Part shown: piece after piece, positions 3,031-4,492 of the stretch
Layout: every line of letters starts with the position of its first letter
Position numbering within the stretch: the stretch's first letter is position 1
Source of the DNA: a virus
Taxonomy: Duplodnaviria; Heunggongvirae; Uroviricota; Caudoviricetes
Strand: one strand, 5' to 3'
DNA: 64,000 nucleotides
IMG/VR virus record: IMGVR_UViG_2877251553_000001
Span: 10,207 to 74,206 of that record
Translations under genes and position numbers: made by a program
Notes under the pieces: model-generated
Database searches by the model: none
Told to the model about the DNA's origin: nothing
The model's input: only the letters and a program-made list of their open reading frames with translations

Positions 3031-3058
3031 TTGCAGAAGCCGCTTCAGCGGCTTCTAA

Positions 3059-3541
3059 TTAAGTATTCATGTTTTTCTTCTCTTCAAACAATTCCTTTAT
3101 TTTCAATGGAATGAAAGTTGATTGTATGAATGAGAAACATGTTAAAAATGAGATTGAATATGCAATAGTGTTTTTTGTATATTCAAAATAAATACCTGAA
3201 TGTGTTTTATCCTTGGATAAAAGATAAAATACAAATATTAATGCAAGTGTAATTATATACATCAAGAATAGAGTATAGCTTTTTACAAAGCGCATATAAA
3301 ATCGAGTGCTCTGGTTGGCTTTGTCTAATGCATTAAGTGATTTCGAAATTGAGGAGTTCTCACCAGACATAGTAATGACTAGCAATAAAAAACCGGATAG
3401 GATTGAGAAAACATTTGCAACAAGATTTAATGCGTCATTGTTATTTGTTAAGCTGTTTGTGAGATATTTTGAGAAAAAGAAGGAGGCTAGGAAGTTTCCT
3501 GTGGTAATTATAATTCCCGTCCAGTTATAATCTTTAAACAT
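3059..3541 (-). CDS. Four-helix integral membrane protein, unknown family
   Basis: 160 aa, four hydrophobic segments, GGAGG ribosome-binding site 5 nt upstream; AT-rich; second gene of a two-gene operon. Confidence 0.6.
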   Translation of the reverse strand: MFKDYNWTGIIITTGNFLASFFFSKYLTNSLTNNNDALNLVANVFSILSGFLLLVITMSGENSSISKSLNALDKANQSTRFYMRFVKSYTLFLMYIITLALIFVFYLLSKDKTHSGIYFEYTKNTIAYSISFLTCFSFIQSTFIPLKIKELFEEKKNMNT

Positions 3542-3565
3542 ATGGCCTCCCCGTTTTTAAGTATA

Positions 3566-4387
3566 TTATAACTCATTTGTGACAAAATGCTCTAAAATTT
3601 CATGAGCATATTTGCTGGAAATTGTTTGCGAGCCGTATGGTAACGTGTAGTAAATCTTTGTAAGTTTCATGTCATCGCTAGTGATTTTCTCTCCTTTTTT
3701 AGTTTCAAAGTAAAAGTCACTGTTTAAATCAGATATCCAAGGCGTCGGATTGTTTTCAATTGATGCAGCAACGGCAGGGTTTCCTCTGGCATCGATAGTA
3801 AAATGGCCACTTATTCCTGTTTGTTTTAATTTTGGCTCTTTTTTTACAAACACAGATAAGAAACTAGGCTTGTTAACAAAATCTGATTCATGCACGTTGA
3901 AATTCACATGTACAGCGCGCAAACCATCATCTTTGACTTTTTGGATTACATTTTTCTTTAAGATAGCTGACGGTATAATATCTATGCCATAGCATTTGAA
4001 GATTTTTGCTATTTTGACTTCACTCCAGTTAGTGGATATTTGAAGGAGTGAAGCAATTTGATTATCCTTAACCATAAAGAAGGCATGTAAATTGTCAAAA
4101 TTTTCAACATCTAACAAATCTTTAGTGTTAGGTTTATTTGGGGTGATCGACACTTCTTCTTTCGGATTGTATAAAGAAAAATGTAAGTAATGGATATTAC
4201 CTTTAGTGCTAAATTCTTTTAATTTTAAATGCCTGTTAGTTGATAACTGGATTATGGAACCCTGTACAAATTTATTATTTGTTGATATTTGCTGAAATAA
4301 ATTACCCTTCCCGTCAAGGTTCACATTAAAAGCCCTAACTTGACATTTCTTTGTTAAATTGTTTTTTTTGGTATTAGAAAAGTTCAT
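3566..4387 (-). CDS. Hypothetical soluble protein, unknown family
   Basis: 273 aa, Lys/Asn-rich, AAGGGA ribosome-binding site; first gene of the AT-rich operon; no family recognised. Confidence 0.6.
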   Translation of the reverse strand: MNFSNTKKNNLTKKCQVRAFNVNLDGKGNLFQQISTNNKFVQGSIIQLSTNRHLKLKEFSTKGNIHYLHFSLYNPKEEVSITPNKPNTKDLLDVENFDNLHAFFMVKDNQIASLLQISTNWSEVKIAKIFKCYGIDIIPSAILKKNVIQKVKDDGLRAVHVNFNVHESDFVNKPSFLSVFVKKEPKLKQTGISGHFTIDARGNPAVAASIENNPTPWISDLNSDFYFETKKGEKITSDDMKLTKIYYTLPYGSQTISSKYAHEILEHFVTNEL

Positions 4388-4415
4388 AGTTTTCCCTTAT
4401 TCGCTGTGTGTCCTT

Positions 4416-4444
4416 ATTGTAAAAAAAAACTAACGCGTACGCAA
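4416..4444 (-). promoter_or_regulatory. Sigma70-like promoter for the AT-rich operon
   Basis: Minus strand reads TTGCGT, 17-bp spacer, TACAAT, about 30 nt upstream of the 3566-4387 start. Confidence 0.4.
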
Positions 4445-4492
4445 AAACTATTGTATCGTGTTAAGAGTGGTTACTTCGCCACACAACTTAAA

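What the first reader, a model, noticed from the sequence alone, without database searches (positions are those of the whole stretch)
3031..4460. AT-rich two-gene operon with RexA/RexB-like architecture, antisense between Q and tR'
A 273-aa soluble protein and a 160-aa four-helix membrane protein are co-oriented on the minus strand, separated by 24 bp, each with a good ribosome-binding site. GC content is far below the flanking phage DNA and the operon has its own near-consensus promoter, so it would be expressed in the lysogen independently of Q. The gene sizes and soluble-plus-membrane arrangement mirror lambda RexA/RexB; that parallel is inference, and I recognise neither protein family.
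Basis: partly seen in the sequence, partly recalled or inferred. Interest (0 to 1): 0.85.

Follow-up and report, generated by a model that had tools for sequence, protein, structure and literature searches.

The report
Unannotated RexAB-like prophage gene pair
Two unnamed genes sitting backwards between a prophage's late-gene regulator and its lysis genes encode a protein predicted to fold like phage lambda's RexA sensor plus a small four-helix membrane protein, so they are most likely an overlooked relative of the classic Rex "suicide-on-infection" phage-defence system.

Summary
The two ORFs are real. A is 3566-4387(-), 273 aa. B is 3059-3541(-), 160 aa. They have a 24-bp gap, good ribosome-binding sites, GC 0.28-0.37 against ~0.5 in the flanks, and dN/dS of about 0.07. 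The claimed "near-consensus promoter" is only an 8/12 match.

A and B always travel together, in the same order, across Enterobacterales and Pasteurellaceae. In one branch (E. coli phage 2G7b type, Budvicia) the pair sits directly after the cI repressor, which is lambda's rexAB position.

There is no sequence-level similarity to RexA or RexB. It is therefore a separate family of the RexAB-type class, which already includes validated sequence-divergent members (Sucellos, P. putida RexABpp, Sbash gp30/31). Defence function is inferred, not shown, and identity with Sucellos could not be tested directly.

The parts
3566..4387 (-). Gene A: 273-aa soluble, basic (pI 9.2) protein with a predicted RexA/RdgC-class two-domain fold. 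Proposed sensor and DNA-binding subunit.
3059..3541 (-). Gene B: 160-aa basic (pI 9.3) inner-membrane protein with four hydrophobic helices and a charged C-terminal amphipathic helix. Proposed membrane effector, RexB-like.
   Evidence: ORF. AF2 helices at 7-32, 35-68, 71-110, 117-141 and 144-159. KD segments at 9-27, 40-58, 90-108 and 126-144, against RexB 8-26, 48-66, 84-102 and 116-134. Near-invariant motif DALNLVANVFSILSGFLLLVIT. dN/dS 0.067.
3542..3565 (-). 24-bp A-B intergenic spacer carrying the Shine-Dalgarno GGGGAGG (3552-3546) for B. This is an operon junction.
   Evidence: Read directly from the sequence.
4388..4444 (-). 5' region of the operon. SD AAGGG is at 4397-4393. The candidate sigma-70 promoter is -10 TACAAT (4421-4416) and -35 TTGCGT (4444-4439), spacer 17.
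   Evidence: Manual and PWM-style scan gives 8/12 matches. The tool's consensus scan did not report it. The -35 lies inside an invariant backbone block. The -10 lies at the cargo/backbone junction.
3034..3057 (.). 10-bp GC-rich hairpin filling the gap between the convergent stop codons of Q (3030) and B (3059). Probably a bidirectional terminator or RNA-stabilising hairpin.
   Evidence: Fold energy -16.6 kcal/mol (- strand) and -18.6 kcal/mol (+ strand), z about -4. No clean U-run on either strand.
4420..4512 (.). Conserved phage-backbone block that borders the cargo slot. It contains the invariant TTTTGCGTACGCGTTAG (4446-4430, core palindrome GCGTACGC), a conserved -10-like TAyAAT, and a hairpin plus T7 at 4490-4512(+). 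It is likely the late-promoter/qut/tR' region for this small-Q type.
   Evidence: Conserved from E. coli to Yersinia. Shared with mEp460 and Stx2a_1447, which carry different cargo. The hairpin region is annotated as a terminator in phage Ayreon. The fold is weak in this window. The functional assignment is inference.
2668..3030 (+). Antiterminator Q (120 aa, PF06530). This is the left border of the slot, convergent with B.
   Evidence: Pfam E 1.5e-45 and phrog_79.

Best explanation
Genes A and B form a RexAB-type two-component phage-exclusion (abortive-infection) module. It is carried as AT-rich accessory cargo in the variable slot between Q and the late-promoter/terminator block of a lambdoid prophage.

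**Proposed mechanism, all inferred by analogy**
- A is a cytoplasmic, basic protein with a RexA/RdgC-like fold. It probably forms a DNA-binding dimer and senses a product or DNA intermediate of an infecting phage.
- A then activates B, a four-TM inner-membrane protein that oligomerises into a channel.
- The membrane depolarises and ATP falls. The infected cell stops growing or dies before the invader completes its cycle, which protects sister lysogens.

**Expression, inferred**
- The operon is probably transcribed leftward from a moderate promoter at the slot border, independently of Q.

**Shown versus inferred**
- Shown: gene structure, selection, predicted fold class, four-TM topology, strict pairing of A and B, and occupancy of the rex slot by relatives.
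- Inferred: DNA binding, the A-B interaction, channel activity, the exclusion phenotype, and expression in the lysogen.
For: **1. Predicted fold**
- Ranks 2, 3, 4 and 8 are RdgC, CHL4, the C. glutamicum NDP-sugar epimerase 3oh8, and IML3. That is the neighbour list the RexA structure paper reports for RexA (PMC11077077).
- Domain order matches RexA: a beta-rich N-terminal part (about 1-135), an inserted beta/alpha domain (about 139-248), and a returning C-terminal helix (258-272). RexA has 1-139, 143-234 and 248-279.

**2. Partner**
- B has four hydrophobic helices spaced like RexB's, a basic TM2-TM3 loop, and pI 9.3 in both proteins.

**3. Obligate pairing**
- Every A relative examined is followed by a B homolog in the same order. 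This includes relatives at 20-30% identity from Yersinia, Providencia, Budvicia, Haemophilus, a P2-like prophage and E. coli.
- Partner scores are hmmsearch E 1e-33 to 1e-79 and hhalign 99.8%.

**4. Synteny**
- In E. coli (L015; phages 2G7b and PhiR11_1) and Budvicia the pair lies immediately downstream of the CI/S24 repressor, on the same strand.
- In E. coli it also lies ahead of N and sieB, which is lambda's rexAB position.

**5. Accessory-cargo character**
- The cassette is AT-rich.
- It is rare and patchy: about 10 of 5,426 complete E. coli genomes and 6 of 100,044 species representatives.
- It is nearly always in prophages or next to integrases. Other phages hold different antisense cargo in the same slot.

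**6. Precedents**
- RexAB-like systems without a Pfam match have been validated as abortive-infection defences: Sucellos (bioRxiv 10.1101/2024.07.02.601686), RexABpp and Sbash gp30/31 (PMC6426596).
Against: - There is no sequence-level link to RexA or RexB. The Pfam RexA/RexB and PADLOC RexA/RexB models miss both proteins while detecting the lambda controls.
- Profile-profile comparison of the widened A family with 21 true RexA proteins gives probability 0.25%. B against RexB gives 0.3%.
- Four-TM bundles of about 150 aa are generic. The fold search for B gave nothing significant (best E 0.018).
- The promoter is mediocre and not conserved in all lineages, so expression in the lysogen is unproven.
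- No phenotype data exist for any member of this family.
Confidence: 0.6

Rival explanations
1. The pair mainly serves the prophage's own life cycle rather than defence. [quoted passage not shown] B would be an accessory membrane factor.
For: [quoted passage not shown]
- RdgC is the second-best fold match.
- RdgC-like genes next to cI have been proposed to act like RexA in exclusion and/or induction (PMC12315714).
- One branch of the family sits in the cI operon position.
Against: - The pair also occurs outside any immunity region: the Q slot, next to an integrase, and as a stand-alone islet in the Haemophilus chromosome with no phage genes nearby.
- Strict co-inheritance with a membrane protein is not explained by a pure DNA-transaction role.
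- This reading does not exclude the defence reading. Lambda Rex does both.
Confidence: 0.15
2. The family is not new. It is the already published Sucellos system (SclA/SclB), first found in the Vibrio cholerae superintegron and reported as RexAB-like, unmatched by Pfam, and frequent in Salmonella prophages.
For: - The published description fits closely: two genes, predicted RexAB-like structures, no Pfam RexA/RexB match, both genes required, and homologs 'often in prophages (Salmonella)'.
- The A and B families do include Salmonella entries (P0044 and P0179).
Against: - An exhaustive profile search of 1.84 billion representatives found only 22 A relatives. All named ones are Enterobacterales or Pasteurellaceae, and none is Vibrio.
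- The scan of 100,044 species genomes with the B motif found 6 loci and no Vibrio.
- Sucellos homologs were found by plain BLASTP from the V. cholerae proteins, and Sucellos was identified in a Nitrosospira phage. That implies a much broader family than this one.
Confidence: 0.12
3. The RexA resemblance is fold convergence or reuse of a generic alpha/beta scaffold. The pair would then have an unrelated function, such as a membrane toxin with a cytoplasmic antitoxin or regulator (an addiction module), or an injection-blocking superinfection-exclusion protein.
For: - There is no detectable sequence similarity.
- Lower-ranked hits are generic TBP-like, PsbP-like and SRPBCC-like folds.
- B has no significant structural match.
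Against: - RexA ranks first, and the next-ranked hits reproduce RexA's own published neighbour list.
- Total length, domain order, gene order and partner type all coincide.
- Relatives replace rexAB at its exact locus.
- Convergence in fold, partner and genomic slot together is unlikely.
Confidence: 0.1

Closest known systems
Bacteriophage lambda RexA/RexB exclusion system (Pfam PF15969/PF15968; PDB 8TWQ)
   Same: - Gene order is soluble protein first, then membrane protein, with a short gap.
- Sizes are close: 273/160 aa here against 279/144 aa in lambda.
- A's predicted fold has RexA as its best PDB match, with the same domain order.
- B has four TM segments with similar spacing and pI.
- The pair is carried by lambdoid prophages, and a diverged branch of the family sits in the cI-rexA-rexB position.
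   Different: - No sequence similarity is detectable by HMM or profile-profile methods.
- In this window the pair is not in the immunity operon. It lies antisense between Q and the late-promoter block.
- It is therefore not under PRM control.
- No biochemical or genetic data exist.
Pseudomonas putida prophage RexABpp (PP_5643/PP_5644; Sci Rep 2026, PMC12894663)
   Same: - It is a prophage-borne soluble protein plus four-TM pair.
- The membrane partner has no detectable RexB homology.
- It was accepted as 'RexAB-type' and shown to defend.
   Different: - RexApp also gave an HHpred hit to RexA (98%), which protein A does not give here.
- The RexApp-His construct is 37.5 kDa, against 31 kDa for A.
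- It comes from a different host clade.
Sucellos SclA/SclB (Vibrio cholerae superintegron cassette; bioRxiv 10.1101/2024.07.02.601686)
   Same: - It is a two-gene system with a RexAB-like predicted structure that the Pfam Rex domains miss.
- Its homologs are often in enterobacterial prophages.
- It has an abortive-infection phenotype and its own promoter.
   Different: - Sequence relationship to A/B could not be tested.
- The taxonomic ranges look different: Sucellos is broad and includes Vibrio and Nitrosospira phages, while A/B is confined to Enterobacterales and Pasteurellaceae.
Mycobacteriophage Sbash gp30/gp31 and Gordonia phage CarolAnn gp44/gp43
   Same: - These are prophage-expressed soluble plus four-TM pairs proposed to depolarise the membrane.
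- The central cytoplasmic loop of the TM protein is functionally important. B likewise has a conserved basic TM2-TM3 loop.
- A Sbash 165-aa protein is a weak structural neighbour of B (TM-score 0.51, E 0.18, not significant).
   Different: - gp30 is larger (372 aa).
- The hosts are actinobacteria.
- gp30 and RexA were reported to share a DUF4747 motif, which HMMER does not detect in the A family.
RdgC recombination-associated DNA-binding protein (PDB 2OWL)
   Different: - RdgC is a stand-alone gene, is larger, and has a finger/tip domain that forms a ring.
- It has no membrane partner.
- A gives no Pfam RdgC match.

Membership tests
Lambda RexA family (Pfam PF15969 / PADLOC RexA) | Significant match to the family HMM | tested here: not met
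   A has no Pfam or PADLOC hit, and none of the 30 A-family members hits RexA even at E<=10. Positive controls work: lambda RexA scores 1e-97 in Pfam and 9e-110 in PADLOC.
Lambda RexA family (Pfam PF15969 / PADLOC RexA) | Profile-profile similarity to an alignment of true RexA proteins | tested here: not met
   hhalign of A3 (30 sequences, Neff 4.9) against A4 (21 RexA proteins) gives probability 0.25% and E 0.24. The best local alignment is colinear (A 63-134 with RexA 50-123) but not significant.
Lambda RexA family (Pfam PF15969 / PADLOC RexA) | Two-domain fold: a split globular domain interrupted by a beta/alpha dimerisation domain, closed by a C-terminal helix | tested here: met
   [not shown]
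Lambda RexA family (Pfam PF15969 / PADLOC RexA) | Homodimer that binds dsDNA non-specifically | not testable with these tools
   The only indirect support is the basic pI of 9.2. No multimer or DNA modelling was available.
Lambda RexB family (Pfam PF15968 / PADLOC RexB) | Significant match to the family HMM or profile | tested here: not met
   No hit. hhalign of A2 against RexB gives probability 0.3%. The B HMM against RexB gives E 0.46. The control, lambda RexB, scores 8.6e-61 in PADLOC.
Lambda RexB family (Pfam PF15968 / PADLOC RexB) | Inner-membrane protein of about 150 aa with four TM helices and a charged central loop | tested here: met
   KD segments and AF2 helices agree. The same layout is present in all seven partners examined. 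This feature is generic.
RexAB-type defence systems (functional class: lambda Rex, Sbash gp30/31, RexABpp, Sucellos) | Adjacent, co-oriented soluble RexA-fold gene followed by a four-TM gene, co-inherited as a unit on a prophage or mobile element | tested here: met
   Pairing and gene order are kept in every context examined: the Q slot, the cI slot, integrase-adjacent, a P2-like prophage, and a Haemophilus islet.
RexAB-type defence systems (functional class: lambda Rex, Sbash gp30/31, RexABpp, Sucellos) | Both genes required for exclusion of heterologous phages, with an abortive-infection or membrane-depolarisation phenotype | not testable with these tools
   No experimental data for this family were found in the literature.
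RexAB-type defence systems (functional class: lambda Rex, Sbash gp30/31, RexABpp, Sucellos) | Expressed from the prophage in the lysogen | tested here: inconclusive
   The only promoter candidate is 8/12 and is partly conserved. The cI-slot branch could ride the repressor transcript. No transcript data are available.
Sucellos (SclA/SclB) | BLASTP-level similarity to the V. cholerae N16961 proteins | tested here: inconclusive
   The sequences were not obtainable; they are absent from the stored part of the supplement. Indirectly, no Vibrio appears among the named relatives of the 22 representatives found in 1.84 billion proteins, several of which are unlabelled metagenome sequences, or among the 6 loci from 100,044 species.
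RdgC (Pfam PF04381) | Family HMM match; stand-alone ring-forming DNA-binding protein | tested here: not met
   [not shown]
Kiwa (KwaA/KwaB) | KwaA/KwaB HMM matches; membrane gene first, DUF4868 protein second | tested here: not met
   [not shown]
DUF4747 (domain reported in RexA and Sbash gp30) | Match to the DUF4747 model | tested here: not met
   UniRef labels a Haemophilus member (P0267) 'DUF4747 family protein', and PMC6426596 reports DUF4747 in RexA and gp30. hmmscan finds DUF4747 in neither the A family nor the RexA family. This is a lead pointing the same way, and I could not reproduce it.

The most novel reading that the evidence does not exclude
The junction between the small PF06530-type Q gene and its conserved late-promoter/terminator block may be a dedicated docking site for interchangeable antisense cargo cassettes.
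- The invariant backbone block (TTTTGCGTACGCGTTAG, with the palindrome GCGTACGC) would supply the -35 and possibly an operator for whatever cargo is inserted.
- Defence cargo would then be on in the lysogen and silenced by convergent transcription when the prophage itself is induced.
- At least two cargoes in this slot (A/B here, and the 343-aa plus four-TM 179-aa pair of Stx2a_1447) would be independent, deeply diverged Rex-like pairs.
- That would imply a large hidden superfamily of RexA-fold/four-TM abortive-infection modules that current defence finders miss.
Probability: 0.2. Interest if true: 0.65.

Novelty: new member of a known kind. Interest (0 to 1): 0.5.

Why it matters
Rex was the first phage-exclusion system ever described, and its mechanism is still unresolved. 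A compact sister family would help in three ways.
- It is sequence-unrelated but shares the predicted fold, and its motifs are very strongly conserved. One example is the near-invariant LVANxFSILxGFLLLVIT helix in B. This gives an independent handle on which features of the sensor and the channel are essential.
- Pfam, PADLOC and NCBIfam all miss the family, so defence inventories of Enterobacterales prophages under-count Rex-type systems.
- The same pair occupies both the cI-adjacent rex slot and the Q-proximal slot. That slot holds other antisense cargo in mEp460 and in a Stx2a phage, and the Stx2a phage's stx genes lie a few kb downstream of it. This marks the Q-proximal junction as a place to look for further prophage-borne defence genes.

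Tried and rejected
- **Family libraries.** Pfam, PADLOC, PHROGs and NCBIfam gave no functional name. B has only a weak, sub-threshold DUF4064 hit. A belongs to phrog_23561, function unknown.
- **Sequence searches against solved structures.** Nothing significant for the A or B profiles.
- **hhalign against Rex.** A against RexA and B against RexB were negative, first with single lambda sequences and then family against family.
- **DUF4747 bridge.** Not reproducible with HMMER.
- **Fold search for B against viral models.** No significant hit. The Sbash 165-aa match has E 0.18, and I could not verify that it is gp31. My guessed accession KP027195 turned out to be phage Cosmo and was discarded.
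- **afdb50 fold library.** Unavailable.
- **Sucellos sequences.** Not in the stored supplement, so direct comparison was impossible.
- **Holin or lysis function for B.** Rejected. B is antisense to the lysis cassette, is always paired with A, and also occurs in cI-adjacent and non-phage contexts.
- **Kiwa.** Rejected on gene order and absence of HMM hits.
- **Rightward late promoter in 4388-4620.** No convincing sigma-70 match was found, so the PR'/qut assignment of the conserved block remains an inference.
- **Rfam and tRNA scans.** Nothing in or next to the cassette.
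Full report
**1. Observation**

The window opens in the late-early region of a lambdoid prophage. The genes are RusA (462-851), a KilA-N protein (838-1668), DUF968 (1670-2665) and a 120-aa antiterminator Q (2668-3030; PF06530, E 1.5e-45).

Two co-oriented ORFs follow on the opposite strand. A is 3566-4387 (273 aa) and B is 3059-3541 (160 aa), separated by 24 bp. Each has a Shine-Dalgarno sequence at proper spacing: AAGGG at 4397-4393 for A and GGGGAGG at 3552-3546 for B. 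GC falls to 0.28-0.37 across the cassette, against about 0.5 on both sides.

To the right lie a small winged-helix-like ORF (4613-4831, phrog_331), an N6/N4 DNA methylase (4981-6033), then holin, lysozyme and Rz.

Both ORFs are real genes. dN/dS against an 87%-identical E. coli variant is 0.079 for A and 0.067 for B. Full-length homologs exist in many genera.

- The consensus scan reports nothing upstream of A.
- The best candidate is TTGCGT-17-TACAAT (4444-4439 / 4421-4416), 8 of 12 matches.
- It is retained in the E. coli E10 variant (TAGAAT) and in Klebsiella (TATAAT), but not in Enterobacter or Yersinia.

A strong 10-bp hairpin (-16.6 to -18.6 kcal/mol, z about -4) fills the 28-bp gap between the convergent stops of Q and B. 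The hairpin plus T7 at 4490-4512(+) is weak in this window. It aligns with an annotated terminator in phage Ayreon.

**2. What the proteins are**

No library names either protein. Pfam gives nothing for A and only a sub-threshold DUF4064 hit for B. PADLOC and NCBIfam give nothing. A belongs to phrog_23561, function unknown. RefSeq calls both 'hypothetical protein'.

Both families are small.
- A word-indexed search of 5.8 billion proteins returned 59 clusters for A and 136 for B, all Enterobacterales.
- An exhaustive profile search of 1.84 billion representatives found only 22 A relatives, all about 265-300 aa.
- The named relatives extend the range to Yersinia, Providencia/Proteus, Budvicia, Haemophilus, Mannheimia and Pasteurella.

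AlphaFold models built from family alignments are usable. A has pLDDT 82 and pTM 0.74; B has pLDDT 81 and pTM 0.70.

The RexA structure paper lists RdgC, that same epimerase, Cas2, IML3 and CHL4 as RexA's structural homologs. It describes a split globular domain (1-139 and 248-279) interrupted by a four-strand, four-helix dimerisation domain (143-234) (PMC11077077).

The A model has the same order: a beta-rich N-terminal part to about residue 135, a beta/alpha insert at about 139-248, and a returning C-terminal helix at 258-272. Foldseek against viral models also returns RdgC-like 'recombination-associated' proteins.

B has four hydrophobic segments (9-27, 40-58, 90-108, 126-144), spaced like RexB's (8-26, 48-66, 84-102, 116-134). 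It has a basic TM2-TM3 loop, and pI is 9.3 in both proteins. Its fold search gave nothing significant.

**3. Limits of the Rex link**

At the sequence level there is no link. hhalign of A against lambda RexA gives 0.2%. B against RexB gives 0.3%. The widened A family (30 sequences reaching 19% identity) against 21 true RexA proteins gives 0.25%. In that last comparison the best local alignment is colinear, A 63-134 with RexA 50-123.

The PADLOC and Pfam Rex models detect the lambda proteins strongly and miss A/B completely.

There is one unreproduced lead. A Haemophilus family member carries the UniRef label 'DUF4747', and the Sbash paper says RexA and gp30 share a DUF4747 motif. HMMER finds that domain in neither family.

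A/B is therefore not a member of PF15969/PF15968. The relationship is at the level of predicted fold and architecture.

**4. Comparative genomics**

This is the strongest support. The pair is inseparable. In every locus examined an A relative is followed by a B homolog of 155-169 aa. Partner scores are hmmsearch E 1e-33 to 1e-79, and hhalign gives 99.8% for the E. coli cI-slot partner. Where the gene caller had skipped B, the ORF is present.

The contexts fall into classes.
- **Antisense between a PF06530 Q and the holin.** This is the window's arrangement. It is seen in E. coli, Enterobacter, Klebsiella and Yersinia prophages with different replication and lysis modules.
- **Immediately downstream of the CI/S24 repressor, on the same strand.**
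  - In E. coli the order is cro, cI, A', B', N, sieB, with lambda O, P, cII, cIII, kil and gam around it. That is exactly lambda's rexAB slot.
  - The same pair is found in phages 2G7b and PhiR11_1.
  - Budvicia has the same arrangement.
- **Next to an integrase** in Providencia.
- **In a P2-like prophage** that also carries AbiH.
- **As a stand-alone two-gene islet** in Haemophilus chromosomes.

The cassette is rare. The Q-slot type is in about 10 of 5,426 complete E. coli genomes and the cI-slot type in 7. Only 6 of 100,044 species representatives carry the B motif.

**5. The slot**

Homology with cargo-free relatives begins at window position 4420. The block 4420-4512 is conserved from E. 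coli to Yersinia. It includes the invariant TTTTGCGTACGCGTTAG, a -10-like element and the hairpin-T7.

Phages mEp460 and Stx2a_1447 share this block and have the same small Q, but carry other antisense cargo there. mEp460 has a 308-aa ORF. Stx2a_1447 has a 343-aa plus 179-aa pair. Ayreon has a different Q and shares only the terminator onward.

I infer that the block is the late-promoter/qut/tR' region for this Q type, and that the Q-to-block junction is a cargo hotspot. I could not identify a convincing rightward promoter.

The Stx2a_1447 pair has the same soluble-then-four-TM layout. Its large protein aligns colinearly with A over 153 columns, but only weakly (hhalign E 0.004, probability 9%).

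**6. Mechanism**

The best-supported reading is a RexAB-type abortive-infection module. A would be a cytoplasmic dimeric sensor and DNA binder, and B would be a membrane channel effector. An infecting phage would trigger A, B would depolarise the membrane, ATP would fall, and the infection would abort.

What is shown is the gene structure, the selection, the predicted fold class, the topology, the pairing and the synteny. Everything about activity is inferred from lambda Rex, Sbash gp30/31 (PMC6426596), RexABpp and Sucellos.

Rivals:
- A role in the prophage's own switch or recombination. Lambda RexA has such a role, so this is not exclusive of defence.
- Identity with Sucellos.
- An unrelated function with fold convergence.

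**7. Comparison with what is known, and novelty**

RexAB-like systems that escape the Pfam models are already published and validated.
- Sucellos comes from the V. cholerae superintegron. Its homologs are 'often in Salmonella prophages' (bioRxiv 10.1101/2024.07.02.601686).
- RexABpp comes from a P. putida prophage.

I could not obtain the SclA/SclB sequences. The narrow taxonomic range of A/B and the absence of any Vibrio member argue that A/B is a different sequence family. By contrast, Sucellos was found by BLASTP and has been identified in a Nitrosospira phage. This is indirect evidence, and I give about 12% to identity with Sucellos. No paper mentions the RefSeq accessions or the PHROG.

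**Verdict**

This is a real, well-conserved, unannotated family that is a new member of the known RexAB-type kind. It is interesting because current tools miss it, because it links the rex slot and the Q-proximal slot, and because it points to a cargo hotspot. It is not categorically new, and its function is untested.

Noticed in passing
window 4420-4512 (also L002, L003, L004-L010, L020, L031): About 90-bp block conserved from E. coli to Yersinia, and associated with the small PF06530 Q. It has the invariant TTTTGCGTACGCGTTAG (palindrome GCGTACGC), a conserved -10-like TAyAAT, and a hairpin plus T-run. It is probably the late promoter/qut/tR' for this Q type, but no convincing rightward sigma-70 promoter was found.
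   Followed up: partly
L031 1390-2953 (Stx2a_1447) and L003 2026-2952 (mEp460_4F5), same slot as window 3031-4420: Other phages with the same Q and block carry different antisense cargo here. Stx2a_1447 has a 343-aa soluble protein plus a 179-aa four-TM protein, with weak colinear similarity to A (hhalign E 0.004, probability 9%). mEp460 has a 308-aa protein. None has a significant Pfam match or any PADLOC hit. The Q-proximal junction looks like a cargo hotspot, and the Stx2a pair may be another, more distant Rex-like module.
   Followed up: partly
L015 5001-6381 (E. coli GCA_019592605.1); phages 2G7b and PhiR11_1: A diverged copy of the same pair (31% and 34% identity) replaces rexA-rexB directly after cI in otherwise lambda-like immunity regions. 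It is annotated 'hypothetical' in all records.
   Followed up: yes
window 4613-4831 and 4981-6033: A 72-aa winged-helix-like ORF (phrog_331; weak TrmB/MarR hits) and an N6/N4 DNA methyltransferase sit in sense orientation between the terminator block and the holin. The same arrangement is conserved in mEp460, Ayreon and Stx2 phages.
   Followed up: no
window 32604-32802, 39923-39989, 48058-48145(-), 48208-48285(-), 51018-51134: Rfam gathering-level hits to IS009 RNA, int-alpA RNA, C4 antisense RNA, isrK Hfq-binding RNA and an ALIL (IS3-type frameshift) pseudoknot. These suggest further mobile elements or a second prophage-like immunity region downstream of the lambdoid late genes.
   Followed up: no
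E. coli genome hits H28/H29 (NZ_CP062908.1, NZ_CP062863.1) and H35 (NZ_CP061530.1): In two pig isolates the cassette match is split by an IS5-family element. In strain WEM25 only the first 65% of the query region is present, so gene A is truncated. The cassette is occasionally inactivated in nature.
   Followed up: no
L016 5001-6367 (Haemophilus metagenome contig) and L023 8001-10018 (P2-like prophage): In Haemophilus the pair is a stand-alone islet between metH-like genes and an AAA_14/DUF4143 ATPase, with no phage genes nearby. In a P2-like prophage it is followed by a third, 200-aa gene, and AbiH sits next to the integrase.
   Followed up: partly
(family sizes): The canonical RexA family (PF15969) is itself small and essentially confined to Enterobacterales, with 36 clusters in 5.8 billion proteins. 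It has about the same size and range as the A family, so the two look like parallel, mutually exclusive occupants of similar prophage niches.
   Followed up: no
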